DNA of 64,000 bases from contig QKDN01000046.1 in assembly GCA_003252535.1 (NCBI GenBank), positions 27,183 to 91,182 on the forward strand. Reading direction: 5' to 3'. Within the stretch, counting starts at the first letter, position 1; every line of letters starts with the position of its first letter. The notes beneath the pieces are model-generated. The model had not been told where the DNA came from. It ran no database searches and worked only from the letters and a program-made list of their open reading frames with translations. Shown here piece by piece: positions 18,647-36,647 of this stretch. The stretch comes from Campylobacterota bacterium. Its GTDB lineage: Bacteria; Campylobacterota; Campylobacteria; Campylobacterales; Sulfurovaceae. The position numbers and the translations under genes were made by a program.

Positions 18647-18690
18647 TTTTTTCTCCTTAGTATGATTGGATGAAGCTCTCTCGAAGAGGC
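18393..18690. repeat. direct repeat copy A (5' end of tail fibre gene plus about 40 bp upstream), about 90% identical to 19711..20010
   Basis: Direct nucleotide comparison of the two regions in this window. Confidence 0.85.
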
Positions 18691-18797
18691 ATTTGATACA
18701 CCTCTTCAAATGAAGTGTAGTTTCTGAGCCAAGAAATGACTCGAACTCAATATCTTGAAACTCTCAGTTCGCAACGATAAGTTGTGTCATTCTCATG

Positions 18798-19964
18798 CTA
18801 CACTGCGGTGATAGTGCATTGGCGATCAGAACCAATGCCGGGATGTGGTTGACTGTAGTTAGCGATTGCCATAGTAATAGTCAAGGTCGTACTCTCTCCT
18901 GAGGAAAGTGCGGATGTATCAATGGTAGTCGATGTAGTAGTATCACCAACACCAATCGTGACATAACCGTCTCCTCCATCGAAGATAATATAAGATTCAC
19001 CCAGTGATGGCGCATGACCCAATGCTAATGATACATCAACAGATTGTGTCCCTGCCGGTATCTGTATATCCGTTACAGGGAAGTACGCTTCGTAGGGCAT
19101 ATATTCGTCTCCTACTTCAACTGTGATATTGAAGTCGACATCGATGAGGTTCGTTGCTACTACCGGCTTAAAAAAGGTGTACACTTTGGCACTATCGACG
19201 AAGATGAACTGGTTTATCAGTTTTGCCGTATCCACTGATGAGAACGGTGCTGACATTGAGGTGGCTGGGCCGACAGTACCAACAGATTTTTCTGTATATT
19301 TGATATGACCGAATACACCGAGGTCGTGAGCAATCTTTAATATGTCGAGATTCGCATAGTACACAGTTCCGGCGACGAGATTCTGACTGTACGTGACAGA
19401 AAAGCTCCCCGTGATCTGGCAAAATGTACCCTGTCTGATAAGTCTCAAATCTACTTTATGTAGGTACTTTTCGGTTCCGGAAGGGGCTGATATGTCGAGA
19501 ATATCACTATTGCCATATTCTATAAGATAGCTCTCCGAATAGAATCTTGCTTCTCTCATGACGGGTGACACCATGATCCAGTCCACGCTTGATATGTTGG
19601 GCACATCTTCCGTACCGTTCGGCGTGTACCATATCGCGTCGTTGTATGATACTGTCGTATTCGCTGCCACGGTGCCGCTTCCTACATAGTTCGGCATGTA
19701 AGTACCATTCGCCAGCGCCTGGACTATAGCCGTACTCGACACGACCTCAGCGTGCTTGGTATCGATATCCGCGCTGGCTGCATTGATACCGGTGATGACA
19801 TCGCGCAGTTTCGAGATGAATGCGGTGATCTCCGGCAGGATGATTGTCTTCCAGTAGGTCAGCCAGCCGCTTGCTTTGGAGTTGAATGTCGTTTTTCCCT
19901 CGGCGATGAGCGGCACATCAGGGGCATCGGTAAATTCATGGTCTATTTGGTCTATTTGTGGCAT
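18798..19964 (-). CDS. phage tail fibre / receptor-binding protein, paralog 2
   Basis: Start at MPQIDQIDHEF; N-terminal about 100 aa identical to paralog 1; distinct C-terminal domain. Confidence 0.6.
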   Translation of the reverse strand: MPQIDQIDHEFTDAPDVPLIAEGKTTFNSKASGWLTYWKTIILPEITAFISKLRDVITGINAASADIDTKHAEVVSSTAIVQALANGTYMPNYVGSGTVAANTTVSYNDAIWYTPNGTEDVPNISSVDWIMVSPVMREARFYSESYLIEYGNSDILDISAPSGTEKYLHKVDLRLIRQGTFCQITGSFSVTYSQNLVAGTVYYANLDILKIAHDLGVFGHIKYTEKSVGTVGPATSMSAPFSSVDTAKLINQFIFVDSAKVYTFFKPVVATNLIDVDFNITVEVGDEYMPYEAYFPVTDIQIPAGTQSVDVSLALGHAPSLGESYIIFDGGDGYVTIGVGDTTTSTTIDTSALSSGESTTLTITMAIANYSQPHPGIGSDRQCTITAV

Positions 19965-20010
19965 TGCTGCTTCTCCTTCTAGTTTTGTTGTATGAAGCTC
20001 TCTATATCGA
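19711..20010. repeat. direct repeat copy B (see 18393..18690)
   Basis: Direct comparison; same orientation as copy A. Confidence 0.85.
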
Positions 20011-20905
20011 GTGAGCACTGCGACATCGAAGCGTTCTCATAGACCTGCACCATGGAGGTGTAGTATCCGAATTGTAAGAACGCCTCCACGCCGTCCATCA
20101 GTCTGAACATCGTCGCCTTGTTCGAGAGGCTGTCGAGCTTCTTTTTGGCAGCATCGAAGCTGTCCGAGGCAAGCTTGATATCGCAGCTGATAAGGTTGGC
20201 AAGGTCGCCTTTGACGAGCTGCACCTTCCCGAATGCATTCTTCTCCGGTTGCCGCGGATTCACCTGGGTGACCGATGCGCCAAACTGCGTACATCCGATC
20301 CCCTCTGTCCTCCCGGCGACGATAAATGCAAGCTCGGCAGTCGCAGTATCAGGCGTATGTATGATGATCTCTACTTTTTGTGAGAAATCTATAGTAAGCG
20401 GATGCGCTATGTTGGCACGAATGTCGCTGGGTACATCATATAAAAACCAATCATACAGATTGTCCGGCCCGCCATCATCGATGATGTCGTAAGTCGTATC
20501 GGCTATTATATCGCCCGTATCGTTGCGCTCAATCACCTGTACAGAGGCGCCCAGCACCCCCATGATCGCCAGCATATTGCACTTGTTACATGAGAATATC
20601 ACATGGAGATCTCCCACACAGGAACATACTGCCGTGGTCTCGCCGTGCTCGCTCATGATCTGATTGTAGGCGGTCAGCATAGCTTTAGAATTTACAGGCT
20701 GCTGTGGATACCACTTCGCAGACACGTTCGGTAGCTCAGTATCTGCTGTCGTGGTATCCTCGGTACACAGGTAGATATAGTCGTTGTATATCCTGTACTC
20801 ACCGGCTGCCACTACAGCGCCAGATACCCAGTCCGGGTATGTCTCGTCTATGGCATTGGTTTCCAGCTGCTCTATAGCCCTTGGTTCTACTACCTCAAAT
20901 TCCAT
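19979..20905 (-). CDS. phage tail structural protein, putative distal tail protein (Dit-like)
   Basis: 308 aa, located between tape measure and fibres as Dit is in siphovirus tail modules; no motif confirmation. Confidence 0.4.
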   Translation of the reverse strand: MEFEVVEPRAIEQLETNAIDETYPDWVSGAVVAAGEYRIYNDYIYLCTEDTTTADTELPNVSAKWYPQQPVNSKAMLTAYNQIMSEHGETTAVCSCVGDLHVIFSCNKCNMLAIMGVLGASVQVIERNDTGDIIADTTYDIIDDGGPDNLYDWFLYDVPSDIRANIAHPLTIDFSQKVEIIIHTPDTATAELAFIVAGRTEGIGCTQFGASVTQVNPRQPEKNAFGKVQLVKGDLANLISCDIKLASDSFDAAKKKLDSLSNKATMFRLMDGVEAFLQFGYYTSMVQVYENASMSQCSLDIESFIQQN

Positions 20906-20906
20906 C

Positions 20907-23900
20907 TTATGCCCTCGCCTTCACTTCGGTATAGAAGTTGTTCTTTTTTGTAGTCTTGAGCGTCTCTGCCGAGATCGCGTTCATCTCTTTGATCGTCTTT
21001 ATCAGCTCCATATTTTGCGACACCATAGAGCTCATCGACTTCTGCATATCCTGAAAGCTTCGCGTAGATACACGATCGACAGCAGTTGCCAGCTGCGGCG
21101 CCAACAGTCCGAATGACTGCTTGATATCCTGGGAGCCGGAGACGGATGCTTTTGCCGCTGTACTTGCAAGCTGCTGGGCAGTAGACGCAGATGATCTGCG
21201 CGTCCCGGTAGAGGCATTTGCAACCGTGCTCGCCAGTAGAGCCGCTGATTCAGTAATATATTTTTTGTCAGACTCTGATATTTTTTTCCCGGTGTTGGGC
21301 TGGGTGCCACCGCCCTCCCTGGCGATCAGTGCATCTATCATTTTGATCGCCGATGCGTTCACACTCTCGTCGATCTTGAGCAGCGTGGCGTCTATATTCT
21401 CGAGCAGCGCCTGCTCGGGAGGTGTTGCTATCCCCTGTATGTCAGCATTGGCTTTGGTGATCATAGAGATGAATTCCGCTTCGTTCCTAGCCGAGCTCTG
21501 CGCCTTTTCTGCAAAGTTCTGATAGGCGCCGGATACCCCTGCATAGTCACCGTTGTTGATCGCTTGCGACAGGAGTGTTTGGGACTGCGCCACCGTCCCG
21601 ATCGTGTACGAGCGCAGCGTCTCCATAGATGACTCTTTGGCCGAGAGTATGGATTCGCGCAGTGCGTTCGAGGCCTCTATCTCGGCGTTGATCCCGTCGA
21701 TCCTGGTCTGCTCTAGCTCTTTGAGCCTGTCCTTTTCTGCATTCGCCCAGGTATCTATCTGGGAGAGAACATCTTCTGATGCGACGCCCGATCTGATATT
21801 CTTCTGGATACCCGATGCAGTGATTTTGGCCGGCGTCGTATAGGCTGCCTTCGCATCGAGCAGCGTCTGCATAGCCGCCGCCCTCTCGTCTGCGAGCTGT
21901 TGCTCGTTGTCCATGAGCTGCTGCTGCATATCATAGAGTTCTGCGAACTGCGGAGAGAGTTCAAGGAGCTTGTCCTTGAGGGTCTCACCTGTCTTGCCGG
22001 TGAAGCTGAGCGAATCTACCAGATTTTTGAATTCTTCTTTTGTCTGTGGCATAGTGAGCCCAAGTGCATTCATGCTGTTCTGCAAATCTCCGGCAAGCAT
22101 GGAGGCCTGCTCCTCCGTGGAGTAGAAGCTACCTATAAAGCTATCAAGTGCTGCTTGTCTCGTGTCGTTGAGCTGCTGCTCCATATCATAGAGTTCTACG
22201 AACTGCGGAGAGAGTTCAAGGAGCTTGTCCTTGAGGGTCTCTCCCGCTGCTCCGCTGAGACCGAGCGAGTCTGCCAGTTTATTGAATTCTTCTTTCGTCT
22301 TTGGTGTCATCGTGTCTGCGTTTCCACTGAAGCTGAGCGAATCTACCAGATTTTTGAATTCTTCTTTTGTCTGTGGCATAGTGAGCCCAAGTGCATTCAT
22401 GCTGTTTTGCAAATCTCCGGCAAGCATGGAGGCCTGCTCCTCCGTGGAGTAGAAGCTGGAGATGTAGCTGTCCAATGCTGATTGCCTCTTATCCGCGAGC
22501 TGCTGCTCCATGTCGATCATCTTGGCATACTCCGGGGAGAGTGCTATGAGTTCGCCATAGAGCTTGGCACTCTCCTCGTCCGTTACTTTGAATCCCTGGA
22601 TCAGATCGGCAAAACCTTCGGCTGTGTCGGGGAGCTTGATACCAAGAGTCTTGGCCGAGCTTTCCAGGTTGTTTTTGACGATGTTGTACTGTTCCTGGTC
22701 CGAGAGGAAGTTTTGCTGGAATGACTGCATGGCAGACGAGAATGCATCCTGACCACCGGCAGCTTCTACCACATCGAGGGTGGCCTCCTGCGCAGAATAT
22801 ATCTTGCCCCATCCTTTGCCGAAGCTTGCCATTGATGATGCCATTTGTACAGCCATAGAGGAAGCAGCATCCATATCCCCGTTCTGAATAGCTGCTGACA
22901 TGCTCTTAGCCATAGTAGACATGGAGTTGCCGGTCTTATGTGACTTGACTATATTGTCGCCTATGATGACGCCGATATCCTCCAGCTGTGCTGAAGACTG
23001 CTCGTATGTGACCGCCAGACGCCCAAGCGTCTCCAGACCATCCTCCCCTGCCTTGCCGTATTTATCTACCCAGCGGTCGATTTCACCTACGCCGCCAAGT
23101 ACCCCAGAGAAATACTCGCTATACGCCGCCTCTATACGTTTTGATGCCTCTTCTGGCGACAACCCCTCAAGGTCTATCTTGCCGATCTCGACCTCGACCT
23201 TCTTGAGCGCATCTTCGTATTGACCGAGCCCGAGCGTCCCGATCGCCTCGAAGATGAAATCATAACCCTCCTGGAACGCCTCTGTGAAATATGACTGCTG
23301 TTCAGCAGTGAGGTCGATGACGGTATCTTTTGTGTACTGCTTCGTCGACAGCCCGAAATATTTTTTCTTCGTGATGATCTCTGTCGTATACCCCTGTACT
23401 ACGCCATCCATGAAGGTATCGTAGCTTGAAGCCCCCATGATCACTCCGGTGCTGAGCATCTCCCGGGAAGTCGAGCTCCAGATGCCTCCTGATTGCGACG
23501 GCTTGTAGTCAGCCCCCGTCAGGTCGACCCCTGCCGATCCGGCTACGGAAATGGCTTTCCCTATGAGAACGAAGTTCTTGTCCATTGAGGCGAGATACTT
23601 CGTCATCTGGTAGGTAGATTCGAGCAGCGGGTCCTGTGCACTCTCGAATATCCCTTTCAGATTTGCCAGTGACTCGTCTGAGAAGTCCGTGCGCCCTTTG
23701 GCTGCTTCTTTTTCTGCATCGGTGAGGGTATCGGTGAGGGATGACGACAGAAATGAAAGTCCTACCCCGATGGCCATTGCAAAGACATTACCGCTCATCC
23801 CCCCCAGGCTATTGAGCCCGGAGCTTAAGGTGGATGCAAGCGACTCCGAGAGGTTGTTGACTATCGGTTTGACGAGCTCTGAGGAGACTCCATCGACAAA

Positions 23901-25859
23901 ACCTTTGAACGCACCGGAGAAGTCCCCTTTGAAAACACCCCCCAGCAGCCCTTTGAACTCGTCGGTGAAGTCGAGTGCGCCGCCATGGTGTTTCTTCCAC
24001 ATTGCGTCATTGGCTTTAGCGACATCTTCAGCGGTCATTTTCCCGGCAGCCCTGAGCTTCTCGAATTCTTTCTTCGCCTCTGCTGCGTCAAGCTCGAAGA
24101 GTTTTTCCTTCTGTCCTGTCAGCTCCAGGAATTTGCGGTAGGATGATTCCAGGTCTTTGGTGGATGAGGCTGCATTCTTCACGCCTGATGCGTGTTCTTT
24201 TGCCGCATTGACCCCTTTTTTCCCGCTTTCATCAGCCTTTTTCCCCATATCTTCGGTCGCTTTTGACAGCTCTTTGGTAGATGCGGTTTCTTTGGCAGTT
24301 TCCTTTGTTACCTTGCCTGTACCCGAAGCAATCTTTTTCCATGTATCTGCTATCGCATCTGCTGTGGTAGCCTGAGTCTTGTATGCTTCGTTAAGTGATG
24401 CATTTGTGCTTCCCGTATCGATGAGCTTTTTGGTAGATTTCGTTGCAGCTTCGATAGATGATTCGTACGAGCCTATAGATATAACGATAGGCTTGAATGG
24501 GTTTTCCTTTCCCGCTAACGCAAATACATTGTCAAAACCAGAAGAAAACGAATTGATAAACTCCGATACAACCCTGAGCAATCCATTGATCATAGCATAG
24601 AAACCCTCGCCGATAGCATCTACTACAAACTTGAAAGTGTTCTGCATAGATACAGTCAGAGAGTTCCATCCATCGCCTATTACATTGATTCCATCTTCAA
24701 TACCCAGTACTACTTCGTAGAAGCCAACGCGCAAGGTTGCTCCCATGTTCAGGAATCCAAGCCCGGCAAGCTGTGCAGTAGAACCGACATGAACCCCTAG
24801 TGCTGCTATGAGATCAAGAACCCCATTGACCTCGTCTTTGATTTGCAGAAAGTCCAGTGCGCCACCCAAGGCATCACTGATACCTTCACCCACGACAACT
24901 ATTGCTTGAGGAAGATATGAAAAAGTGTCGTATATATCCCCGGCCATCGTGACGAAAGTACCGGTTACGGATTGTCCGATACTGGCTGCTTCTGGTCCGA
25001 GGTCATTGAGTATGCGGGTGAGCTCTTTCGCCCCATCTTTCTGCGCGTCGAATATCGGCTGTGTGATCTTCCCGGCGAACATATCCCATGTCGTGCTGAG
25101 GTTGGACATGGCGTAGGCGTATGTATCCTGCTCGGTACCGGTCTCGCTGAGTTTCTCTTTGAGGAACGCTACTTTGTCCCCGGCGGCAGCGTAGGATTCT
25201 TTGGTGACGCCAAGTGTCTGCATCATCTTGCCGAAACCGCTGTTGGCATCCCATGTGCCGTCCGCCATATCGTTGATCCCGGCTGAGAGATCATCGGTCG
25301 AGAGGTTCAGGTTGGATGCGCTGTTGGTGACGAGCTTGAGTATATCCGCCTGATCCTTGAGCGCCCAGTTGTTGCGCTCCATCCCCGGTTTGGCGAGGGC
25401 ATAGATATCGACGAGCTCGCTCATCCCCCTGCCGGTCTTTGTGCTGGTCTTCTCGAGGAGTGACATCATCGCCGCCACTTCGCCGGATACGAGCTTCTGC
25501 CGCTCCATCGCCGTGACCTGTTGCCCTGTTGTGAGCGTCAACCCTTTGGATGCCAATACGATCGCTGTCAACTTTGCCTTGCTAGCGTCCATGGTCTTGT
25601 TGTATTCAAGACCGCTATGCATGACAAAATCGAATGCCTGTTTGAGCGATATGATCTTTCCGACACTCGAGCCCAGATCGCTGATGGTGTTTTTGATACG
25701 GCCGATGGCAGAGGATGTCTGCGCAGCCTCGGTTTTGAGACTGTCGAACTGTGTCAAGACGACACTTATATCCCCTGTCCTGGCATCGACCGAGAGGACG
25801 ATCTCAAGATTCTGTTGCATTTGCCTGTACCCCCCGCTCGATGGTTTTGATATTTTCAA
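20907..25859 (-). CDS. phage tail length tape measure protein
   Basis: 1650 aa, largely alpha-helical/low complexity, internal tandem repeats (MPQTKEEFKNLVDSLSF...LKDKLLELSPQF.ELYDM), directly downstream of G/GT chaperone pair; possible alternative start at MQQNLEIV (25820). Confidence 0.85.
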   Translation of the reverse strand: MKISKPSSGGYRQMQQNLEIVLSVDARTGDISVVLTQFDSLKTEAAQTSSAIGRIKNTISDLGSSVGKIISLKQAFDFVMHSGLEYNKTMDASKAKLTAIVLASKGLTLTTGQQVTAMERQKLVSGEVAAMMSLLEKTSTKTGRGMSELVDIYALAKPGMERNNWALKDQADILKLVTNSASNLNLSTDDLSAGINDMADGTWDANSGFGKMMQTLGVTKESYAAAGDKVAFLKEKLSETGTEQDTYAYAMSNLSTTWDMFAGKITQPIFDAQKDGAKELTRILNDLGPEAASIGQSVTGTFVTMAGDIYDTFSYLPQAIVVVGEGISDALGGALDFLQIKDEVNGVLDLIAALGVHVGSTAQLAGLGFLNMGATLRVGFYEVVLGIEDGINVIGDGWNSLTVSMQNTFKFVVDAIGEGFYAMINGLLRVVSEFINSFSSGFDNVFALAGKENPFKPIVISIGSYESSIEAATKSTKKLIDTGSTNASLNEAYKTQATTADAIADTWKKIASGTGKVTKETAKETASTKELSKATEDMGKKADESGKKGVNAAKEHASGVKNAASSTKDLESSYRKFLELTGQKEKLFELDAAEAKKEFEKLRAAGKMTAEDVAKANDAMWKKHHGGALDFTDEFKGLLGGVFKGDFSGAFKGFVDGVSSELVKPIVNNLSESLASTLSSGLNSLGGMSGNVFAMAIGVGLSFLSSSLTDTLTDAEKEAAKGRTDFSDESLANLKGIFESAQDPLLESTYQMTKYLASMDKNFVLIGKAISVAGSAGVDLTGADYKPSQSGGIWSSTSREMLSTGVIMGASSYDTFMDGVVQGYTTEIITKKKYFGLSTKQYTKDTVIDLTAEQQSYFTEAFQEGYDFIFEAIGTLGLGQYEDALKKVEVEIGKIDLEGLSPEEASKRIEAAYSEYFSGVLGGVGEIDRWVDKYGKAGEDGLETLGRLAVTYEQSSAQLEDIGVIIGDNIVKSHKTGNSMSTMAKSMSAAIQNGDMDAASSMAVQMASSMASFGKGWGKIYSAQEATLDVVEAAGGQDAFSSAMQSFQQNFLSDQEQYNIVKNNLESSAKTLGIKLPDTAEGFADLIQGFKVTDEESAKLYGELIALSPEYAKMIDMEQQLADKRQSALDSYISSFYSTEEQASMLAGDLQNSMNALGLTMPQTKEEFKNLVDSLSFSGNADTMTPKTKEEFNKLADSLGLSGAAGETLKDKLLELSPQFVELYDMEQQLNDTRQAALDSFIGSFYSTEEQASMLAGDLQNSMNALGLTMPQTKEEFKNLVDSLSFTGKTGETLKDKLLELSPQFAELYDMQQQLMDNEQQLADERAAAMQTLLDAKAAYTTPAKITASGIQKNIRSGVASEDVLSQIDTWANAEKDRLKELEQTRIDGINAEIEASNALRESILSAKESSMETLRSYTIGTVAQSQTLLSQAINNGDYAGVSGAYQNFAEKAQSSARNEAEFISMITKANADIQGIATPPEQALLENIDATLLKIDESVNASAIKMIDALIAREGGGTQPNTGKKISESDKKYITESAALLASTVANASTGTRRSSASTAQQLASTAAKASVSGSQDIKQSFGLLAPQLATAVDRVSTRSFQDMQKSMSSMVSQNMELIKTIKEMNAISAETLKTTKKNNFYTEVKARA

Positions 25860-26058
25860 GCGTATCCAGAGTATCTACGCCATATTTTCTGGCGTACTCG
25901 AATACGGTAGTAGGATCGATATAGATGGCAAATCCATTCCCGATCCTGCTGTTGGCCCATACGCGAATATGCCACAGGCTCCACTCATCCTCGAGGAACA
26001 CCAGTCCGTGCTCCTCTCTGTACCACTCTTTCCTCTTCTCGATCTCCTCGCTGTCCAT
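25804..26058 (-). CDS. tail assembly chaperone T-domain ORF (expressed as G-T fusion by -1 frameshift)
   Basis: 84-aa ORF in the -1 frame relative to upstream G-like gene; open through from slippery site; classic gpG/gpGT arrangement. Confidence 0.6.
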   Translation of the reverse strand: MDSEEIEKRKEWYREEHGLVFLEDEWSLWHIRVWANSRIGNGFAIYIDPTTVFEYARKYGVDTLDTLENIKTIERGVQANATES

Positions 26059-26117
26059 CCCCTCGAAGCCCGGCGTATCGCCGTTCGAGAGCTGTGTAGC
26101 GTAGGAGATGAGGTCTT

Positions 26118-26663
26118 CTACTTTTTTTTACGAGCCTCTGCTGCCAGGCTGGCAAGCTCCTGGTATGCGACCGTGAAGGCGAAGTTGAGCTCTTCGAGAC
26201 GGTTGACGAGCTTCTCTTTCTCAGGTCCGTCCTGGATGCCGATGAGGAACATCTCTTTGGCGATCGCATTGTCGCGTCTGTTTGTCGCTTCGATCTCCTT
26301 CGCACGGCTGTGTCTGGCGTTGATCTCTTCGAACTGGTCTTCGAGCTTTCGCTTGTCCGTTCGCATCGCCTGCACTTCCTGGAGCATCGTCTTCTTGATC
26401 GAAGCGTCCTCTTCGAGCGGGATGATCTGGAGAAGTCCGGAGATATCTTCTGTGACCCGGTTCAGTCTTTTCGAGACAGCTTCTTTCTCTTTTGCCGCAT
26501 CGATGATCGGGGCAAACTCCTCGTCGATCGCTGCGAATCTCTCCTCCATCTCCGGTGTGTCGATGAGCTCTTTGGGAGAGTTGAGATTGGCGGTGATGTG
26601 GTAGGTCTCTACCGTATCGCCCGCTTTGATTTTGAAGTCTAGTTTTGTCGTGTTCTGGATCAT
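26118..26663 (-). CDS. tail assembly chaperone (lambda gpG-like)
   Basis: 181 aa acidic protein between major tail protein and tape measure; ends ...AEARKKK* on the slippery heptamer. Confidence 0.65.
   Translation of the reverse strand: MIQNTTKLDFKIKAGDTVETYHITANLNSPKELIDTPEMEERFAAIDEEFAPIIDAAKEKEAVSKRLNRVTEDISGLLQIIPLEEDASIKKTMLQEVQAMRTDKRKLEDQFEEINARHSRAKEIEATNRRDNAIAKEMFLIGIQDGPEKEKLVNRLEELNFAFTVAYQELASLAAEARKKK
26121..26127 (-). promoter_or_regulatory. programmed -1 ribosomal frameshift slippery heptamer A_AAA_AAG (minus strand) overlapping the G-gene stop
   Basis: Minus strand reads cgt-aaa-aaa-aag-tag; a -1 slip gives GTA GAA GAC ... continuing without stop into ATG GAC AGC of the 25804..26058 ORF; frames verified by coordinate arithmetic. 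Confidence 0.6.
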
Positions 26664-26682
26664 GATATTTCCTTATTTATGA

Positions 26683-27612
26683 CTACGCATGGTATTTGCG
26701 TAGTTCGAAGTTGTCGTCTCCGTTGACCTTGCGGCACTCAAGTGTCCTCTCGATATTGATCAGACCGTCTTTCTTTGGTTTTTTCTGGCTGATCACCACA
26801 CATTTTGGAGCGATGAGCTCCCACTGTTTCGTCCCGTCCACGCTGAAGAGAGGGATGACGAAGTTGAACTCGGTACCGCTCTTGAGGTCGGCGAACGCAC
26901 CTGCATTGTCGGGGTCTGCGACCATCGTGACGGTGAGCTGCGGCTTCGTATCCATCGTGTAGCACGAGCCGCTGCATGTGTCTTTTGGCTGCTTGACATC
27001 TGCGCCCAGCGAGAAGTCCACCTTGGTGAAGTGCGCCTCCTGGCCGTTGACGAGGTATGCCGTACAGTTCTTGGTCATGTAACACTTCTCGAAACTCGGT
27101 ACCGATGGGAGCACGGCATCATCATCCACTGCGTCGAGCGATACCGCTTCATGCAGCTGGCTTACCATCTTGAAGCTCATCAGAGCCGCTTTGCCCACCT
27201 CGAAAGAGAGGTCGACGCTGGCTCTTGCCCCGTAGACCGCCGTGTGCTCTCTCAGACCGAGCTGCTTGAGCGATGCCGTGCTCTTCGATGTCGATGAGTA
27301 GGCGTATGATGTCCCTTCTGCGAATGAGGTACCGACAAGACCGCACATACCAAGCAGCGGCTCGATGAGAGTATGATCGGTCGGGATCTTGATCGAAATA
27401 TCCGTCTCTACCCCTGCGAAGTCCGCGATGACTGTGGTCTCTTTGGAGCCGTGATGCGCTGAGAGCGGATCGTTCTCATCCGTATCTACTTTGGGTTCCC
27501 AGAGGTCGCCCCCTTTTTCCATCGGTAGTACTACATCCGGTTCTACATATGTCCCCGGTACTGCTTCTGTTTTGATCTTGACGACTACGCCGTCTCTTGT
27601 ATATCCTGACAT
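26683..27612 (-). CDS. phage major tail (tube) protein
   Basis: 309 aa, position immediately upstream of G/GT/TMP, conserved synteny. Confidence 0.6.
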   Translation of the reverse strand: MSGYTRDGVVVKIKTEAVPGTYVEPDVVLPMEKGGDLWEPKVDTDENDPLSAHHGSKETTVIADFAGVETDISIKIPTDHTLIEPLLGMCGLVGTSFAEGTSYAYSSTSKSTASLKQLGLREHTAVYGARASVDLSFEVGKAALMSFKMVSQLHEAVSLDAVDDDAVLPSVPSFEKCYMTKNCTAYLVNGQEAHFTKVDFSLGADVKQPKDTCSGSCYTMDTKPQLTVTMVADPDNAGAFADLKSGTEFNFVIPLFSVDGTKQWELIAPKCVVISQKKPKKDGLINIERTLECRKVNGDDNFELRKYHA

Positions 27613-27615
27613 GGT

Positions 27616-27750
27616 TTATTTCTCCTTCTCTTTTTGTGGTGTAGGTTTTTTGGTTGTCCAGCCTTTGGCGATCCAGACAGTTTCCTGGCTCTCTGGTATC
27701 GTAAGCGGCGCGCCGTTCTTTGCATAGATCGTAATCGTTCTTTCTGTCAT
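27616..27750 (-). CDS. small phage tail-module protein (44 aa)
   Basis: MTERTITIYAKNGAPLTIPESQETVWIAKGWTTKKPTPQKEKEK; stop 3 nt before major tail ATG; not in ORF track (<60 aa). Confidence 0.35.
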   Translation of the reverse strand: MTERTITIYAKNGAPLTIPESQETVWIAKGWTTKKPTPQKEKEK

Positions 27751-27758
27751 GCTCTCTC

Positions 27759-28097
27759 CTATCTGATATCTTTGTATGTCACATTGAGCGTACACAGCAG
27801 CAGCCCCGATTCGGTGATGCCCGGCTGTGTCGTATCGGTATTGGATATATCGTATCCGCTCATCGATGCTTCGTAGAGCTTCTCCTCTATATCGTCCACG
27901 GTTGCCTCGAGAGCGGTGAGCGAGAAGTCTGCGACGATTATCCCCAGATGCCTCTCCGTTACCCCGATCTCCAGTCTTTCCATCCCGCCATAGAGGAGGA
28001 ACACCCCGCTCTCATTGACTCCAGTGACATCTGCGTCATTGATCGTCATGGGGGCGAGAGCCTCTCTGAGGGCGGCTTTGCTCGATGCGATACTCAT
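27759..28097 (-). CDS. phage tail completion/terminator-like protein
   Basis: 112 aa, first gene of tail operon next to divergent late-promoter region. Confidence 0.4.
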   Translation of the reverse strand: MSIASSKAALREALAPMTINDADVTGVNESGVFLLYGGMERLEIGVTERHLGIIVADFSLTALEATVDDIEEKLYEASMSGYDISNTDTTQPGITESGLLLCTLNVTYKDIR

Positions 28098-28406
28098 CGG
28101 CAGAGAGCTCCGCCCATCCGTACGCTTTTTCCTGTCCTATGTCCGTCTTCCAATCACTCCTCCTTCAAGTCGTTGTAGAGTCGCAGTATAGCAGTGGGAG
28201 GCGCTCGGGGTCACTCCATATACATGGATATCGAGTGACTTTGCTCCCGGGCTTCTCCTATACTTCATCCGAAACTACACAGGCCGGGTGCCGGCATACG
28301 GCAGGCGGGATATCCCGATAGCAGATATCGGGCAGGCCGGCAGAGAGACCCGGAACGAAGCCCGCTCCGCGCTCCCGCCGACTCCGGCAAGTACAGGACA
28401 AACACA

Positions 28407-28574
28407 ATGAAGATCAAAGAAGAGATCACCGCGATCATGCTCCGTGCAAAGAGTTTCGAGGAGGCGTTCGCCCTCCTTGCCGATGCCTGTCCCGATATGG
28501 ATATGGAAGCGCTTGAAGAGGCGTTCATGGGAGTGATGGAGAACGGGGAGCTGACGGGGACGGAAAGCAGCTGA
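28407..28574 (+). CDS. small acidic hypothetical protein (55 aa)
   Basis: MKIKEEITAIMLRAKSFEEAFALLADACPDMDMEALEEAFMGVMENGELTGTESS; first ORF of rightward late/lysis transcription unit; not in track. Confidence 0.3.
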   Translation: MKIKEEITAIMLRAKSFEEAFALLADACPDMDMEALEEAFMGVMENGELTGTESS

Positions 28575-28663
28575 GTGGAAGAGTGTATGCGGCGTGTGCC
28601 GTTTGGATGATTACGGGCGATTTAACGCCTGTTTAACGCATAGTATATATATGGAGGTGACTG

Positions 28664-29008
28664 ATGTTTGATATATTCGGTAAAGCAAGTGTGTGGATCA
28701 ACGAATCGCAGGTCATGGTCGCGGTGATATTCGGGGCGTTCGTGCAGTTCTTCTTCGGCAAGACGAAGAACGCGAAGGTCGCCGTCACCGTGGTGGTGAG
28801 CTCGATATTCGTCGCGCTCTATATCGTCCCGCCCATCGTGGAGCTCCTCAGGATAGCCAGTGACGGCTCGTGGGCGATCACCCTCTATGCCCTCTCCTCC
28901 GTGGTATCGATAGAGATACTTTCTATGGTGATAGCGATCCTGCCGCTCGCCATGAGGGAACGGGTGGAGGAGTATCTCCAGATCATGGAACATAAGGAGC
29001 CGAAATGA
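28664..29008 (+). CDS. holin-like membrane protein (3 TM)
   Basis: 114 aa, three hydrophobic helices, charged C-terminus, immediately upstream of spanin pair; opposite-strand ORF 28622..28993 is an antisense artefact. Confidence 0.5.
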   Translation: MFDIFGKASVWINESQVMVAVIFGAFVQFFFGKTKNAKVAVTVVVSSIFVALYIVPPIVELLRIASDGSWAITLYALSSVVSIEILSMVIAILPLAMRERVEEYLQIMEHKEPK

Positions 29009-29094
29009 GGATCAGAACAGTCCATTACCCCTACGCGATCATCCTGATAGCGGCAGCGGTACTCATCATCTCTCTGATCGGAGCTGCAAGATGA
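29005..29094 (+). CDS. small single-TM protein (29 aa), possible antiholin/lysis accessory
   Basis: MRIRTVHYPYAIILIAAAVLIISLIGAAR; ATGA overlap with holin stop and with downstream start. Confidence 0.25.
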   Translation: MRIRTVHYPYAIILIAAAVLIISLIGAAR

Positions 29095-29402
29095 TACCGG
29101 GATTTGTCGGCAGATACTGGCCGCTGCTCGTCGCCCTCTCGGGGGTGCTGTATCTGTATCATACGATCGACTCGCTCGGGACGCAGCTGGGAGCGTGTCG
29201 TGCAGAGCTCACGAGGATCGACGCCGTAGCCGCAGAGCAGAAGCGCCGGTACGAGGTCTCTGTGAGGAATTATGAGGATGCCATTATCAAAACGGCCAAT
29301 GCATACGAAGAGGATATCAGGAAGATAGAAGAGTTCAAAGGAGAAGCCAATGAGACGAGCTGTCAGAGCGCTGAGCGTATGTTTGACGGTTTCAGCTATT
29401 AG
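29091..29402 (+). CDS. inner-membrane spanin subunit (Rz-like i-spanin)
   Basis: 103 aa, N-terminal TM then coiled-coil periplasmic domain. Confidence 0.5.
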   Translation: MIPGFVGRYWPLLVALSGVLYLYHTIDSLGTQLGACRAELTRIDAVAAEQKRRYEVSVRNYEDAIIKTANAYEEDIRKIEEFKGEANETSCQSAERMFDGFSY

Positions 29403-29589
29403 CGGCTGCACGGGCACTGCACCGCTGCCGGCACCGCAGCCGTGCGTCACGCCGACGGTAGCCAGACCGGTGATGGACAACAGCCGCTGCGGCGATATCC
29501 TCTGCCGCTCGCGCCAGTGCCTGCACAACTACATCGCCATGCGCGCCTACGCCGAGCGTCTCGAAGCGGCGGCATCGGTATGCCGCTAA
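29350..29589 (+). CDS. outer-membrane lipoprotein spanin subunit (Rz1-like o-spanin), overlapping i-spanin in another frame
   Basis: 79 aa, lipobox AISGC, Pro-rich mature region (APLPAPQPCVTP), starts inside i-spanin gene. Confidence 0.55.
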   Translation: MRRAVRALSVCLTVSAISGCTGTAPLPAPQPCVTPTVARPVMDNSRCGDILCRSRQCLHNYIAMRAYAERLEAAASVCR

Positions 29590-29736
29590 GCCGCTGCGTT
29601 ACCCGCGGCAGACGCCCCGGAAATATGAGTCAAAAAAGATAAAGTTCAGAGAGATGAGGTGAAGCGGATGCGTCCAGACCTCTTTGGAGAAGATATAAAA
29701 AAGAAGATGGATACCCCCGCCGGGCGGCGGATCGGG

Positions 29737-29946
29737 TCATGCGTACTGTCTCTTGGGGGGCAGGTCGATATCCTTGTCCACCTCGACGCTGTGTCTGGCG
29801 TACTCCCTCCAGTAGTCGTCGAAACGGATCGCTTCGATGGTCTGGAATGTAGCGTCGCACTGCGTACACTTGCGGAACCTGTGGGTAGTGGGGCCGCGCA
29901 CCGTACCCACTACGCGGGTCGTCCCCTGACACTTTGGACAATCCAT
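29737..29946 (-). CDS. Ogr/Delta-type C4 zinc-finger late transcription activator
   Basis: 69 aa, CPKCQ...x22...CTQC spacing as in P2 Ogr. Confidence 0.55.
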   Translation of the reverse strand: MDCPKCQGTTRVVGTVRGPTTHRFRKCTQCDATFQTIEAIRFDDYWREYARHSVEVDKDIDLPPKRQYA

Positions 29947-29956
29947 CTCTGACCCC

Positions 29957-30355
29957 CTACAGTTTTTTGATCGCGATGATCACCGCGCTTGCCTGTATTT
30001 TACTCAGAATAGATAAACTTAACGGCATGACACCCACGACCCGTCTGACATAATGCATCAGAGCAGGCTGCGAACTCTCCCGCGCCCTCTCGAGCCACAG
30101 CTTCTCTATCGTCGCTATCTGCGCTCTGGTCGCCATCCCTTCGCGCTCACCCGATATCTCGGGCTCCATCCTGCCGTCCATCACGCCGAGCAGGTTCCTG
30201 AGCTCGTCGATGGAGAGTCTGCCGCTGCTTGCCACGCCGTAGTTTTCCATCAGGAATGCCTCCCACCCGTCGCTCTGTTTGGCGCTTTTGTACCACGGGT
30301 GGATGTGGATGCGCCGCAGCAGGTTCCTGCGGTATATCTGCTGTCCTTCTGTCAT
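29957..30355 (-). CDS. GemA-like (Mu gp16, DUF1018) regulatory protein
   Basis: 132 aa; YRRNLLRRIHI...SIDELRNLLGVMDG pattern matches the GemA family. Confidence 0.55.
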   Translation of the reverse strand: MTEGQQIYRRNLLRRIHIHPWYKSAKQSDGWEAFLMENYGVASSGRLSIDELRNLLGVMDGRMEPEISGEREGMATRAQIATIEKLWLERARESSQPALMHYVRRVVGVMPLSLSILSKIQASAVIIAIKKL

Positions 30356-30816
30356 GGATGCTCCTTTGCTCTGTTCTCCCGTATCCGGGTCTGTATCCTC
30401 TCGAAGCTCTTCCTGAGCTGCTCGTCCTGCGTCAGGATGGCGAACTCTCCGCTGCTGCGTTCATGCGGCGCGTCGTCGCCCCTGTCTGTCGTCTGCTGCT
30501 TCGGCTTCAGCCTCGCCGCTATGTCGCGGAACCATATCTTCCCCTGCATCCGCTCGTCGACAAATATCTGCCGCATCCGGCGCAGCACATCCTCTTTCGT
30601 CCCGGCGAACTCCCGGACGATCCCCGGATGATCGAAGTGCAGCACGAGCGCCCCGCCGTGGATGGAGCCGTAGTGGAAGTACTTCTGCTGCCGCTCGTCA
30701 AGAGCCCCGGCGAGCTTGCGGATCAGCTCTGCCTCGGCGAGCTTCGGCGAAGAGAGGGCGCTCCCGCTCCCGATCTGCTCGTCTGTCCTTTTGCATACTG
30801 CATTGGGTATCATCAT
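30352..30816 (-). CDS. phage hypothetical protein
   Basis: 154 aa, ATGA-coupled to gemA-like. Confidence 0.45.
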   Translation of the reverse strand: MMIPNAVCKRTDEQIGSGSALSSPKLAEAELIRKLAGALDERQQKYFHYGSIHGGALVLHFDHPGIVREFAGTKEDVLRRMRQIFVDERMQGKIWFRDIAARLKPKQQTTDRGDDAPHERSSGEFAILTQDEQLRKSFERIQTRIRENRAKEHP

Positions 30817-30875
30817 CCCTCCTTCTGTATAGATTCATTCGAGCCCACCGCGGTGGGTTCGGTGAAGCTACCGTG

Positions 30876-31451
30876 CTATGCTGCCTCCATGATATTCATC
30901 CCCGCCCGCAGCAGCGCGGAGCGGAAGAGGAGCTTCGTGTTCGCCATCGTCTGCGGCGTCATGGGGATAGCGGGCAGTGACGGGAAGACACTGTGCGCCG
31001 CTTCGACGATCGCAGCGTCCCATCCCCAGTCGGCGATCCTCTCAGCTCCGTAGAAGGTCACTGCCTCGATATAGAGGGCGATCAGGTCGGCGCGTTTGAT
31101 CTGTGGCGTGTCGATCTGCACCCCGAAGTGCTGTTCGATAGCCCGCTCGATCCGCTTCTCCAGGCTCTTGTAGATGCGCCCGGAGTTGGACTTGATGGGT
31201 GAGATCATGTCCCCGGTGTACGCCTCCGCCGCATCGTGCAGCAGGGCGCCGAGCCTGTGCTCCGGCGATACGATCCGCGCTACGAGCATACTGTGTTCGG
31301 CCACGCTGTAGAGGCGCGGCGTGTGTCCGTTGAACCTCCCGATAGCGCTGAGAGAGTGGATGATATCCTCGATGTCTATCTGGGAGCTGTCGATGTGCTT
31401 CCAGAACCAGATGCGCTTGCCGCTGTATGTGTCGAGAAACTGCTCCATCAT
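30876..31451 (-). CDS. HD-domain phosphohydrolase
   Basis: Start at MMEQFL; H..HD motif (HSMLVA...LLHDAAEAYTGD); ATGA overlap with upstream M15 gene. Confidence 0.55.
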   Translation of the reverse strand: MMEQFLDTYSGKRIWFWKHIDSSQIDIEDIIHSLSAIGRFNGHTPRLYSVAEHSMLVARIVSPEHRLGALLHDAAEAYTGDMISPIKSNSGRIYKSLEKRIERAIEQHFGVQIDTPQIKRADLIALYIEAVTFYGAERIADWGWDAAIVEAAHSVFPSLPAIPMTPQTMANTKLLFRSALLRAGMNIMEAA

Positions 31452-31873
31452 CTCCCCCTGATCTTTCGGATATCGTAGACCTCCCTGGCATCCCTCCCCT
31501 CGAGTGTCGTGATCTGCCAGTGGGGCATATCCCAGCCCCATTTCGCATAGCCCCACTCGATGGGGAGATCGTAGCGGCTGATGATCTCCTGCATGGCTGC
31601 CCTGATCCCGGCATAGTAGCGTTCTTCCCACGAGGGTTTGCCGTCGACGAATGCCACCAGGTCGACCGCCAGCCCGTAGAGGTGGCAGGAGTTGTTCGTT
31701 TTGCTCGATCCCTTCGCTACGAGCTTCGCCTGCTCCTCGGGGGTACGCAGCCCGTCGAACACCATGAAGTCCTGCTTTGTGATGGCGATCGCCTGCATCA
31801 CTGCGAACGCCAGGATGGGATGGACGCCGTCAAGCTCTTTGAGTGAGCGTTTTGAAAGTCTGTACCCGCTCAT
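31448..31873 (-). CDS. peptidase M15 (VanY/L-Ala-D-Glu peptidase family), probable endolysin
   Basis: 141 aa; HLYGLAVDL Zn-binding motif and overall M15A pattern. Confidence 0.6.
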   Translation of the reverse strand: MSGYRLSKRSLKELDGVHPILAFAVMQAIAITKQDFMVFDGLRTPEEQAKLVAKGSSKTNNSCHLYGLAVDLVAFVDGKPSWEERYYAGIRAAMQEIISRYDLPIEWGYAKWGWDMPHWQITTLEGRDAREVYDIRKIRGR

Positions 31874-32379
31874 GCTGCATCCTGCTGTATCTTCTCGATG
31901 TTCGGCTGGATGCGGAAGCTGTCTCTGACCGTCTTTCTGAGTCCGAGTTTCACGAGGACGCTGTCGTCGAGCTCCGCGATCTCATCCCTGTCTGGTCGCT
32001 CCTCGTACACGATACATGACTGGTACCCGTACGCCTTGAGGCTCCTGAGCAGCGCTTCGACCCGCTCCCTGGTCCTGGGGATCGAGACCGACTTGACGAG
32101 CCTGTATCCTATCGTGCCGAAGTTGAGCACCCTGGAGCGTCTACTCGCAAACTCCGCTTTGTTGGCTTCGCAGAAGAGCTCGATAGCTTTCTCCAGTTGT
32201 TTTTTGTCGTTGTCGATCTCCTGGGAGATGGCTTTGGCCTCCTCTCTGATCTTGTTGATCTTCAGTGTCGTATCGCCGTCGATCTGGCTCTTTTCGATAT
32301 CTATTTCGGCGATGCGGCGCAGCGCGTTATCCACATCGTCCCAGCTGTTGATCGTTGTTGTTGTATTGGTTGTTTTCAT
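31870..32379 (-). CDS. Mu Gam-like host-nuclease inhibitor protein
   Basis: 169 aa; coiled-coil N-terminus then motif pattern matching the Gam family. Confidence 0.55.
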   Translation of the reverse strand: MKTTNTTTTINSWDDVDNALRRIAEIDIEKSQIDGDTTLKINKIREEAKAISQEIDNDKKQLEKAIELFCEANKAEFASRRSRVLNFGTIGYRLVKSVSIPRTRERVEALLRSLKAYGYQSCIVYEERPDRDEIAELDDSVLVKLGLRKTVRDSFRIQPNIEKIQQDAA

Positions 32380-32397
32380 TGTATTCTCCTTGTTGTT

Positions 32398-32520
32398 TCA
32401 GTTTCTGAGTCCTACCCACGCCATCGTCAGTACGATCACGCACACCGCGGCGGTGGCTCCGTATGTGAGATACTCGAGCACGCGATCCCACCGCTGCATC
32501 CGCGGGGAACGCCTGCTCAT
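32398..32520 (-). CDS. small membrane protein (40 aa)
   Basis: MSRRSPRMQRWDRVLEYLTYGATAAVCVIVLTMAWVGLRN; ATGA overlap with upstream ORF. Confidence 0.3.
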   Translation of the reverse strand: MSRRSPRMQRWDRVLEYLTYGATAAVCVIVLTMAWVGLRN

Positions 32521-32705
32521 CTCTTGTCCCTTTTCGCTTTCCCCGTGGGGCACTTCTCTATGGATGCAGTGGAGCGCATCCTGTGCCTGCATCTTCCGCT
32601 TTTGGCATCGGTACGCGGCAGCCGCACGGCAACCCTGCGTACATGGAAGGGGCACCTGTCGCATCCTAGCGCAAACTCGTGTCTGGTGTATATCCCGATG
32701 TTCAC
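32517..32705 (-). CDS. small Cys-containing protein (GTG start)
   Basis: 62 aa, GTGA overlap with upstream ORF stop. Confidence 0.25.
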   Translation of the reverse strand: MNIGIYTRHEFALGCDRCPFHVRRVAVRLPRTDAKSGRCRHRMRSTASIEKCPTGKAKRDKR

Positions 32706-34481: not shown

Positions 34482-34507
34482 AGTGTTCTCCTTTTTTGTC
34501 GCGTTAA

Positions 34508-36615: not shown

Positions 36616-36647
36616 CCGTTCTCCTTTCGTCCCCCTCTCCCGGGTGA

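What the first reader, a model, noticed from the sequence alone, without database searches (positions are those of the whole stretch)
25804..26663. Conserved G/GT-type programmed -1 frameshift on an A_AAA_AAG heptamer overlapping the stop codon
The G-like chaperone gene ends cgt aaa aaa aag tag on the minus strand. A -1 slip on A_AAA_AAG puts ribosomes into the frame of the downstream 84-aa ORF. That frame is open from the slip site (GTA GAA GAC ...) through its ATG, and I verified the frame relationship from the coordinates. This is the hallmark tail-assembly-chaperone frameshift of long-tailed phages. It confirms the module is a real siphovirus-type tail cluster and that the 25804..26058 ORF is not an independent gene.
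Basis: partly seen in the sequence, partly recalled or inferred. Interest (0 to 1): 0.5.

Follow-up and report, generated by a model that had tools for sequence, protein, structure and literature searches.

The report
Phage tail-chaperone G/GT frameshift site
This is a genuine but ordinary example of the programmed -1 ribosomal slip that long-tailed phages use to make two versions of their tail-assembly chaperone. Here it occurs in a previously unclassified chaperone family of Mu-like phages whose relatives infect vent and sediment Campylobacterota.

Summary
The 181-aa gene (26118..26663, minus strand) ends cgt aaA AAA AAG TAG. The -1 frame is closed by TAA immediately 5' of the A-run and open for 105 codons from the G at 26121. 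The two frames therefore overlap by only 10 nt, which are the slippery site itself.

The pattern alone is not decisive, because two unrelated sites in the same window meet the same naive criteria. The comparative evidence is decisive. In 17 distinct related loci (tube proteins 41-88% identical) the T-like domain is always in the -1 frame. An in-register heptamer (16x A_AAA_AAG, 1x A_AAA_AAC) always lies 0-4 codons before the G stop. The conserved T motif YAxQL..G..P starts 6 codons after the slip, upstream of any start codon in 16 of 17 loci. Third-codon-position variability peaks in the -1 frame.

The neighbouring 309-aa protein models as a T5/P74-26-type duplicated tail-tube protein, and a 1641-aa tape measure follows. 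No conserved downstream RNA structure was found, and the upstream SD-like element is not convincing. G and T match no Pfam or PHROGs family.

Side note: the window's Mu-like element has no head genes.

The parts
26683..27612 (-). Major tail (tube) protein gene, 309 aa, with the duplicated-domain T5 pb6 / P74-26-type fold
   Evidence: AlphaFold model from a 31-sequence alignment has pLDDT 87.3. Foldseek against PDB gives 8xan, 7qg9, 8ed0, 9iny and 5ngj at E 1e-11 to 1e-6, TM 0.53-0.72. 11 of 31 family members hit Pfam PF18906 Phage_tube_2. phrog_290 matches at 8e-6.
26118..26663 (-). G-like tail assembly chaperone ORF (zero frame), 181 aa, including the TAG stop
   Evidence: It lies between the tube and tape-measure genes, and the same layout occurs in all related loci. 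It has no Pfam, PHROGs or PDB sequence match.
26121..26127 (-). Slippery heptamer A_AAA_AAG in the X_XXY_YYZ register of G
   Evidence: It is conserved in register in 17 of 17 distinct loci (16x AAAAAAG, 1x AAAAAAC).
26122..26129 (-). A8 homopolymer run containing the heptamer (the run is 6-8 nt long across the family)
26118..26120 (-). Zero-frame TAG stop of G, immediately 3' of the heptamer ('shifty stop' context)
   Evidence: The stop is adjacent in 8 of 17 loci and 1, 2 or 4 codons later in the others.
26130..26132 (-). TAA stop in the -1 frame immediately 5' of the A-run, which limits the 0/-1 overlap to 10 nt
25804..26121 (-). T segment: the -1-frame continuation, 105 codons plus TGA. 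It is translated only as the C-terminal part of the 286-aa G-T fusion
   Evidence: It is 88% identical to L001 from the ATG onward, against 63% for G. The exhaustive search finds only 14 clusters of short T-like ORFs.
26056..26058 (-). ATG of the 84-aa ORF as a gene caller sees it; not conserved in the family and downstream of the conserved YAxQL motif
20907..25832 (-). Tape measure protein gene, 1641 aa. Its ATG overlaps the last codons of T
   Evidence: PHROGs tape-measure hits at 1e-15. Homologues in the relatives carry Pfam TMP_3. The start was chosen by homology with L001.
26046..26105 (-). Window-specific predicted RNA hairpin starting 16 nt 3' of the heptamer; not conserved in relatives and of uncertain relevance
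   Evidence: MFE -26.7 kcal/mol, z = -2.63. RNAalifold on 17 loci predicts 0 pairs.
27616..27750 (-). Small ORF (about 45 aa from the ATG at 27750) conserved upstream of the tube gene; marks the upstream limit of synteny with related phages
   Evidence: tblastn hits in L001, L007, L009, L011, L012 and L019.

Best explanation
This is a programmed -1 ribosomal frameshift of the phage lambda G/GT type. Most ribosomes translating the 181-aa chaperone gene decode ...AAA AAG and terminate at the adjacent TAG, giving G. A minority slip back one nucleotide when the two tRNA-Lys occupy AAA (P site) and AAG (A site) of A_AAA_AAG, re-pairing with AAA AAA. Alternatively, the P-site tRNA-Lys slips alone while the TAG waits in the A site. 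These ribosomes then read GUA GAA GAC ... for 105 more codons, giving a 286-aa G-T fusion. By analogy with lambda, the G part binds the tape measure protein and the T part recruits the tube protein, so a fixed G:GT ratio sets up tail-tube polymerisation. What is shown: the sequence anatomy, its conservation, and coding constraint in the -1 frame upstream of any start codon. What is inferred: that slippage is ribosomal, its efficiency (probably a few percent), and the binding roles of G and T.
For: The anatomy is established: an in-register A_AAA_AAG, a TAG directly after it, and a TAA in the -1 frame directly before the A-run, so the only place to change frame is the 10-nt slippery site. Conservation: 17 distinct loci (tube proteins 41-88% identical, G 16-63%) all have T in the -1 frame and an in-register heptamer 0-4 codons before the G stop. 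The A-run length varies from 6 to 8 and the upstream sequence differs. The base after the A-run is G in 16 of 17 loci, although the amino acid it begins differs (Val in 8, Glu in 8). That G is the feature that matters for tRNA-Lys slippage (PMC5009743). L008 has a G protein that is not detectably related (hhalign probability 1.2%) but keeps the heptamer and T. The conserved T motif YAxQL..G..P starts 6 codons after the slip and precedes any ATG/GTG/TTG in 16 of 17 loci; the entropy by codon position in the -1 frame is 0.82/0.61/1.34. Context: the tube gene lies upstream and the tape measure gene downstream, which is the canonical position (PMC5009743; PMC10274946). T-like ORFs in a 1.84-billion-protein library are all 54-102 aa with starts scattered along the domain.
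Against: There is no direct evidence for a fusion protein. No conserved downstream stimulatory structure exists: RNAalifold predicts 0 pairs and single-sequence z-scores range from +0.3 to -3.3 with different stems. The upstream SD-like GAGG/GGAG is enriched (Mann-Whitney p = 7e-6), but this is explained equally well by a conserved Glu-Ala, and codon choice there is not significantly biased (6 GAG versus 3 GAA, p = 0.31). G and T match no known chaperone family, and the G-T structure model was unusable (pLDDT 49.6). The host's tRNA-Lys repertoire is unknown. Eleven of 17 loci have an A8 run, which could also support some transcriptional slippage.
Confidence: 0.86

Rival explanations
1. Transcriptional slippage: RNA polymerase stutters on the A8 template run and inserts one extra A in a fraction of mRNAs, so ordinary translation of those transcripts gives the same G-T fusion.
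For: The window and 10 other loci carry A8. Inserting one A gives exactly the -1 frame. Transcriptional slippage on A/T runs is a documented alternative route to the same products in other systems (PMC5009743).
Against: Two loci have only A6 and four have A7, and no locus reaches the 9 or more residues typical of utilised transcriptional slippage sites (own knowledge; PMC5009743). The 3' G of the heptamer is conserved in 16 of 17 loci while the encoded residue varies, which is irrelevant to polymerase slippage. This route may contribute a minor share in the A8 loci.
Confidence: 0.07
2. Two ordinary genes: T is initiated independently at the ATG at 26058 as an 84-aa protein, and the heptamer is a by-product of a lysine-rich G tail.
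For: Gene callers annotate an 84-aa ORF here and in L001. Two other sites in the window pass the naive frameshift filter by chance. G tails are Lys-rich throughout the family.
Against: The ATG is not conserved; the first possible start falls at codon 5-61 in different loci, and three loci had no T gene called at all. The 21 codons upstream of the ATG are conserved as protein in the -1 frame, including the YAxQL..G..P motif. In the window the GAGG before the ATG is only 2 nt away (direct reading).
Confidence: 0.03
3. Artefact or pseudogene: a homopolymer-length sequencing error or a recent mutation split what is really one continuous G-T gene.
For: Homopolymer runs are error-prone, and the prophage lacks a head module and could be decaying.
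Against: Seventeen independently assembled loci from different samples, with run lengths of 6, 7 and 8, all show the same two-frame arrangement with a zero-frame stop 0-4 codons after the heptamer. An identical junction was recovered from a second assembly (L003). All tail ORFs in the window are intact.
Confidence: 0.01

Closest known systems
Phage lambda gpG/gpGT and the conserved tail-assembly-chaperone frameshift of long-tailed dsDNA phages (Levin et al. 1993; Xu et al. 2004; reviewed in PMC5009743; more than 2,300 annotated cases in PMC10274946)
   Same: Two overlapping ORFs lie between the major tail protein gene and the tape measure gene. The second ORF is in the -1 frame without its own conserved start. 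A slippery heptamer sits a few codons before the first stop. The T end abuts or overlaps the tape measure start.
   Different: Lambda slips on G_GGA_AAG; here the heptamer is A_AAA_AAG. G (181 aa, with a long Glu/Lys-rich helical middle) and T have no detectable sequence similarity to lambda G/T or to any Pfam or PHROGs chaperone family. In 8 of 17 loci the heptamer is bracketed by stops in both frames, giving a 10-nt overlap.
E. coli dnaX gamma/tau -1 frameshift cassette and IS3-family (for example IS911) A_AAA_AAG frameshifts
   Same: The slippery heptamer is identical, and its efficiency depends on the single tRNA-Lys(UUU) pairing weakly with AAG (PMC5009743).
   Different: dnaX combines an upstream Shine-Dalgarno-like element with a strong hairpin a few nt downstream. 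Here the SD-like element is inconclusive and no downstream structure is conserved. In dnaX the shift leads to early termination; here it leads to extension.
Siphophages T5, DT57C and P74-26 (tail tubes built from a duplicated-domain tube protein)
   Same: The tube protein encoded directly upstream of G has the same two-domain fold (TM 0.65-0.72), followed by a long tape measure.
   Different: Sequence identity is only 8-13%. The genome type is different, since the relatives are Mu-like temperate phages. Whether T5 or P74-26 use a comparable G/GT slip was not checked here.
Mu-like transposable siphophages (for example Pseudomonas B3/D3112 types; own knowledge) and F-type tailocins
   Same: MuA/MuB/Gam early genes lie next to a non-contractile tail module. 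Like a tailocin, the window's element has tail and lysis genes but no head genes.
   Different: Relatives of this tail module (L001 and others) do carry terminase, portal, protease and capsid genes. There is no evidence that the head-less copy is functional or domesticated.

Membership tests
G/GT tail assembly chaperone frameshift class (Xu et al. 2004) | Two overlapping ORFs located between the major tail (tube) gene and the tape measure gene | tested here: met
   The order is tube 26683..27612, G 26118..26663, T 25804..26121, TMP 20907..25832. The order is the same in all fetched relatives.
G/GT tail assembly chaperone frameshift class (Xu et al. 2004) | The second ORF is in a shifted frame, lacks a conserved start of its own, and is conserved as protein from the overlap onward | tested here: met
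   The -1 frame holds in 17 of 17 loci. The YAxQL motif precedes any start codon in 16 of 17 loci. The entropy peak is at the third position of the -1 frame.
G/GT tail assembly chaperone frameshift class (Xu et al. 2004) | A conserved slippery sequence within the frame overlap, near the end of G | tested here: met
   A_AAA_AAG occurs in 16 loci and A_AAA_AAC in 1, always in register and 0-4 codons before the stop.
G/GT tail assembly chaperone frameshift class (Xu et al. 2004) | Two products, G and G-T, made in a fixed ratio, both needed for tail assembly and absent from virions | not testable with these tools
   This needs protein analysis and genetics.
Known chaperone sequence families (lambda gpG/gpT and the Pfam/PHROGs tail-assembly-chaperone families) | Significant sequence or profile match of G or T to a described family | tested here: not met
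   No Pfam or PHROGs hit for the window's G or T. No chaperone family was hit by any of 15 G members or by T members. The PDB profile search gives only coiled-coil noise. tblastn against 50,697 phage records finds nothing.
Known chaperone sequence families (lambda gpG/gpT and the Pfam/PHROGs tail-assembly-chaperone families) | Chaperone-like fold of G | tested here: inconclusive
   The single-sequence AlphaFold model has pLDDT 49.6.
Non-contractile (siphovirus-type) tail module | Tail-tube protein fold, a tape measure protein, and no sheath gene | tested here: met
   Tube fold. Tape measure: and TMP_3 in the relatives. Only small ORFs (42-147 aa) lie between capsid and tube in the relatives.
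dnaX-type -1 frameshift cassette | A_AAA_AAG heptamer | tested here: met
dnaX-type -1 frameshift cassette | Upstream Shine-Dalgarno-like stimulator at a functional spacing | tested here: inconclusive
   GAGG/GGAG lies 6-10 nt upstream in about 10 of 17 loci and is enriched over G-internal windows (p = 7e-6). It is confounded by conserved Glu-Ala codons and by relatedness, and the codon-choice test gives p = 0.31.
dnaX-type -1 frameshift cassette | Stable downstream hairpin or pseudoknot 5-9 nt after the heptamer, conserved | tested here: not met
   RNAalifold predicts 0 pairs. Individual stems differ and start 3-16 nt downstream. There is no Rfam match.
Utilised transcriptional slippage site | Homopolymer run long enough (typically 9 or more A/T) and conserved in length | tested here: not met
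   Runs are 6 (2 loci), 7 (4 loci) and 8 (11 loci) nt long.
Complete Mu-like prophage | Transposase A, transposition protein B, Gam, plus head and tail modules | tested here: not met
   MuA, MuB, Gam and an M15 endolysin are present. No terminase, portal, protease or capsid homologue is found anywhere in the 64-kb window.

The most novel reading that the evidence does not exclude
The tail module carrying this frameshift sits in a roughly 24-kb Mu-type element. The element has transposition, lysis and a complete set of intact tail genes but no head genes. It could be a domesticated flexible-tail (F-type) tailocin rather than a decaying prophage, with the G/GT recoding site kept functional by selection on the host. 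A second minor possibility is that the stop-bracketed 10-nt A_AAA_AAG cassette works without any RNA stimulator.
Probability: 0.12. Interest if true: 0.5.

Novelty: new member of a known kind. Interest (0 to 1): 0.22.

Why it matters
It allows correct annotation: one recoded G/G-T gene pair instead of two 'hypothetical proteins'. It also identifies an orphan protein pair as the tail assembly chaperone of a poorly known group of Mu-like siphophages of Sulfurovum/Sulfurimonas-type hosts from vents and sediments. The family gives a clean natural series (A-run of 6-8 nt, stop 0-4 codons away, one A_AAA_AAC variant, no conserved RNA structure). That series could be used to test how much a bare A_AAA_AAG plus an adjacent stop contributes to -1 slippage outside E. 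coli. It does not change what is known about the mechanism.

Tried and rejected
- Near-identical or protein-level relatives among 50,697 deposited phage genomes: none for the region, the G-T fusion or the tube protein.
- First scans with G-based patterns found only one relative. The tube protein had to be used as the anchor.
- Downstream stimulatory structure: individual folds are inconsistent, there is no consensus structure, and there is no Rfam family. A 12-bit match to 'Mu-gpT-DE' at 25763..25809 is far below its 49-bit threshold and has E = 8.9, so I treat it as chance.
- Upstream SD-like stimulator: the apparent enrichment is not supported by the codon-choice test.
No fold search was run on it.
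- G-family profile search: saturated by K/E-rich words, with only 4 members returned.
- Mu-type terminal inverted repeats at the presumed element ends (about 14.5 kb and 38.5-38.9 kb): none found with an ungapped score of 11 or more, so the element boundaries remain approximate.
- L008's short G as a truncated homologue of the family: rejected (hhalign probability 1.2%).
- The T5 literature was checked for a comparable chaperone frameshift, but the paper read did not address it.
Full report
OBSERVATION. On the minus strand, the ORF 26118..26663 encodes a 181-aa protein ending ...A-E-A-R-K-K-K, with the nucleotides GCT CGT AAA AAA AAG TAG. The A-run is 8 nt (26129..26122). The heptamer A_AAA_AAG (26127..26121) is in the X_XXY_YYZ register of that ORF, and TAG follows directly (26120..26118). 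After a -1 slip the next codons are GTA GAA GAC CTC ... The frame stays open for 105 codons to TGA at 25806..25804. The 84-aa ORF listed by an ORF finder (25804..26058) is the distal four-fifths of this stretch, and the predicted fusion is 286 aa. The -1 frame is closed by TAA (26132..26130) immediately 5' of the A-run, so the two frames are simultaneously open over only 10 nt, which are the slippery site itself. The T stop overlaps the ATG (25832) of a 1641-aa ORF. Every statement in the finding is therefore correct. The only quibble is that the heptamer abuts rather than overlaps the stop.

IS IT MORE THAN CHANCE? Not from this sequence alone. AAAAAAG occurs 35 times on the two strands of the window. 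A naive filter (in-register heptamer near the end of a >=100-codon ORF, with the -1 frame open >=60 codons beyond) is also passed at (-)43126 and at (+)17249. The first is an ordinary junction between an outer-membrane efflux gene and a HlyD-family gene; the second lies in an ORF antisense to a real gene. Lysine codon usage in the element is balanced (AAA 49.5%). A second in-frame A_AAA_AAG lies 14 codons before the tape-measure stop without leading anywhere. The case rests on comparison.

COMPARATIVE TEST. G itself is very rare. A search of 5.8 billion proteins returned only itself and one relative at 63% identity. That relative lies on a 29.9-kb viral contig (L001) with the same gene order. 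Its junction reads cgc gcA AAA AAG TAG: the same heptamer and adjacent stop, but only an A6 run and a different upstream sequence. Using the better conserved upstream 309-aa protein as an anchor (31 homologues at 41-88% identity), I fetched loci from metagenomes, IMG/VR and GTDB genomes. After removing duplicates there are 17 distinct loci.

- In all 17, the T-like domain (found by similarity, not by assumption) is in the -1 frame relative to the upstream ORF.
- In all 17, a heptamer in the correct register lies in the frame overlap: A_AAA_AAG in 16 and A_AAA_AAC in one.
- The A-run is 6 nt in 2 loci, 7 nt in 4 and 8 nt in 11.
- The G stop follows after 0 codons in 8 loci, 1 codon in 2, 2 codons in 1 and 4 codons in 6.
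- The frame overlap ranges from 10 to 139 nt.
- The base after the run is G in 16 of 17, although the residue it begins differs (Val in 8, Glu in 8, Gln with the C variant).
- G proteins are only 16-63% identical to the window's.
- In one locus (L008) G is a 98-aa protein with no detectable relationship to the others (hhalign probability 1.2%), yet the heptamer and T are retained.

T IS NOT AN INDEPENDENT GENE. Aligning the -1-frame translations from the slip site shows a conserved motif YAxQL..G..P beginning 6 codons after the slip (7-8 in two loci with indels). The first ATG/GTG/TTG in that frame lies at codon 5 to 61 depending on the locus, and it is downstream of the motif in 16 of 17. The window's ATG (codon 22) is shared only with L001. 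Over the first 54 nt after the slip, column entropy by codon position is 0.82/0.61/1.34 in the -1 frame, which is the signature of coding sequence. Gene callers found no T gene at all in three relatives. An exhaustive HMMER search of 1.84 billion representatives found only 14 T-like clusters, all 54-102 aa, with starts scattered along the domain. This is what a domain without its own initiation site would produce.

CONTEXT. The 309-aa protein upstream gives a confident model (pLDDT 87.3). Its best structural matches are the major tail proteins of SH-Ab15497, T5 (pb6), DT57C and P74-26, with E 1e-11 to 1e-6 and TM up to 0.72. This is the duplicated-domain tube protein of certain siphophages. 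Eleven of 31 family members also hit Pfam Phage_tube_2. The 1641-aa downstream protein hits tape-measure PHROGs, and its homologues carry Pfam TMP_3. In the relatives only small ORFs separate capsid and tube, with no sheath-sized gene. The position is thus the canonical one for the tail assembly chaperone pair. In lambda the G:GT ratio of about 30:1 is needed for assembly: G binds the tape measure and T binds the tube protein (PMC5009743). Thousands of such frameshifts are annotated (PMC10274946). Three relatives come from Sulfurovum and Sulfurimonas MAGs. The window's own host was not identified (window G+C 52.7%).

MECHANISM AND STIMULATORS. A_AAA_AAG is the most shift-prone heptamer in E. 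coli. In bacteria with a single tRNA-Lys(UUU), that tRNA pairs more weakly with AAG than with AAA (PMC5009743). Whether that holds in this host could not be tested. I looked for stimulators.

- Downstream structure: ten junctions folded individually give z-scores from +0.3 to -3.3, with different stems starting 3-16 nt after the heptamer. The window has a -26.7 kcal/mol hairpin (z = -2.6) starting 16 nt downstream that its closest relative does not clearly share.
- RNAalifold on all 17 predicts no pairs, and no Rfam family matches.
- Upstream: a GAGG/GGAG lies 6-10 nt 5' of the heptamer in about 10 loci and is enriched relative to G-internal windows (p = 7e-6). It coincides with a conserved Glu-Ala, and Glu codon choice there (6 GAG, 3 GAA) does not differ from background (p = 0.31).

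The only recurrent context feature is the stop codon directly after the heptamer (8 of 17 loci), a known enhancer of slippage ('shifty stop', PMC5009743). My best reading is a low-efficiency, largely stimulator-free slip on a very slippery heptamer. The efficiency is not known.

RIVALS. Transcriptional slippage on the A-run would give the same protein. It may add a little in A8 loci. However, runs of 6 and 7 nt occur, none reaches 9, and the conserved 3' G is irrelevant to polymerase stuttering. Independent initiation of T is contradicted by the conserved, start-less N-terminal motif. An assembly error is excluded by 17 independent assemblies with three different run lengths and the same two-frame layout, and by an identical second assembly of the window's junction (L003).

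COMPARISON WITH THE KNOWN. It works like lambda G/GT and meets every sequence-testable defining feature of that class. By sequence it is not a member of any described chaperone family: Pfam, PHROGs, PDB and 50,697 phage genomes are all negative. Its fold could not be assessed. It shares the heptamer with dnaX and IS3-type cassettes but not their hairpin. I rate it a new member of a known kind, of low general interest.

SIDE OBSERVATION. Upstream on the same strand lie Mu-type transposase A and B, Gam and an M15 endolysin. Synteny with related phages stops at the small ORF just upstream of the tube gene. None of their terminase, portal, protease, capsid or connector genes has a match anywhere in the 64-kb window. 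The element, roughly 14.6-38.7 kb between a GGDEF gene and an AcrB-type efflux operon, therefore has intact tail, lysis and transposition genes but no head module. No terminal repeats were found to fix its ends. A recently head-deleted prophage is the simplest reading. A tailocin-like element is not excluded.

Noticed in passing
window 14600..38700 (breakpoint near 27750..27760): The Mu-like element (MuA 34508..36433, MuB 33780..34481, Gam 31870..32379, M15 endolysin 31448..31873) carries an intact tail module but no terminase, portal, protease or capsid genes. Related loci have these directly upstream of the tube gene. It is either a head-deleted prophage or a tailocin-like element.
   Followed up: partly
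L008 4959..5255: In this Sulfurovum MAG relative the G gene is a 98-aa protein with no detectable similarity to the other G proteins (hhalign probability 1.2%). It still ends in the same in-register A_AAA_AAG and is followed by a homologous T domain. The junction and T are kept while G is exchanged.
   Followed up: yes
window 26072..26082 (-); alignment A6 columns 55-65: A 3-bp mini-hairpin lies over the conserved G-[DE]-x-P codons of T, about 42 nt 3' of the heptamer. One pair covaries at third codon positions (CG5, GC3, AU2, UA2, UG2). 86% of cells are paired against 71% in shuffles (0 of 500 reach the observed value). It is too short and too distant to be a canonical stimulator, and its significance is unknown.
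   Followed up: partly
window 43120..43126 (-): An in-register A_AAA_AAG lies one codon before the stop of the outer-membrane efflux gene (43114..44298), with the next gene (HlyD family, 42023..43111) in the -1 frame. It is most likely coincidental, since the downstream gene has its own ATG. It shows that the pattern alone gives false positives.
   Followed up: partly
window 20943..20949 (-): A second in-frame A_AAA_AAG in the prophage lies 14 codons before the tape-measure stop. The next gene is in the +1 frame, not the -1 frame, so no extension would result.
   Followed up: yes
window 20907..25832 (-), residues about 1129-1277 of the tape measure protein: The tape measure contains an internal direct duplication: an identical 40-aa segment at residues 1129 and 1238, about 109 aa apart. 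At 1641 aa the protein would correspond to a tail of about 246 nm at 0.15 nm per residue.
   Followed up: no
window 14603..17212 (-): An 869-aa protein made of about 13 RCC1 repeats (Pfam E 1e-146) sits at the distal end of the tail module, next to host genes. It may be a receptor-binding or fibre protein and has no counterpart in the fetched relatives.
   Followed up: no
window 17351..18709 and 18798..20018 (-): The N-terminal 128 residues or so of the 452-aa ORF resemble the N-terminus of the neighbouring 406-aa ORF; both match the same L001 protein at 40-42% identity. This suggests a partial duplication or module exchange among the distal tail proteins.
   Followed up: no
window 28664..29589 (+): Three plus-strand ORFs lie between the Mu-like early/lysis genes and the tail genes. 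From reading their translations only, they look like a holin (several hydrophobic segments), an i-spanin-like protein and an embedded lipoprotein with a lipobox-like ...AISGC. This was not tested with any tool, and they have no match in the relatives' head-tail regions.
   Followed up: no
window 26683..27612 (-): The tube protein has the duplicated-domain fold of T5 pb6 / P74-26 (TM up to 0.72), which forms trimeric rather than hexameric rings in those phages. Here it is combined with a classical G/GT chaperone pair in a Mu-like phage lineage.
   Followed up: partly
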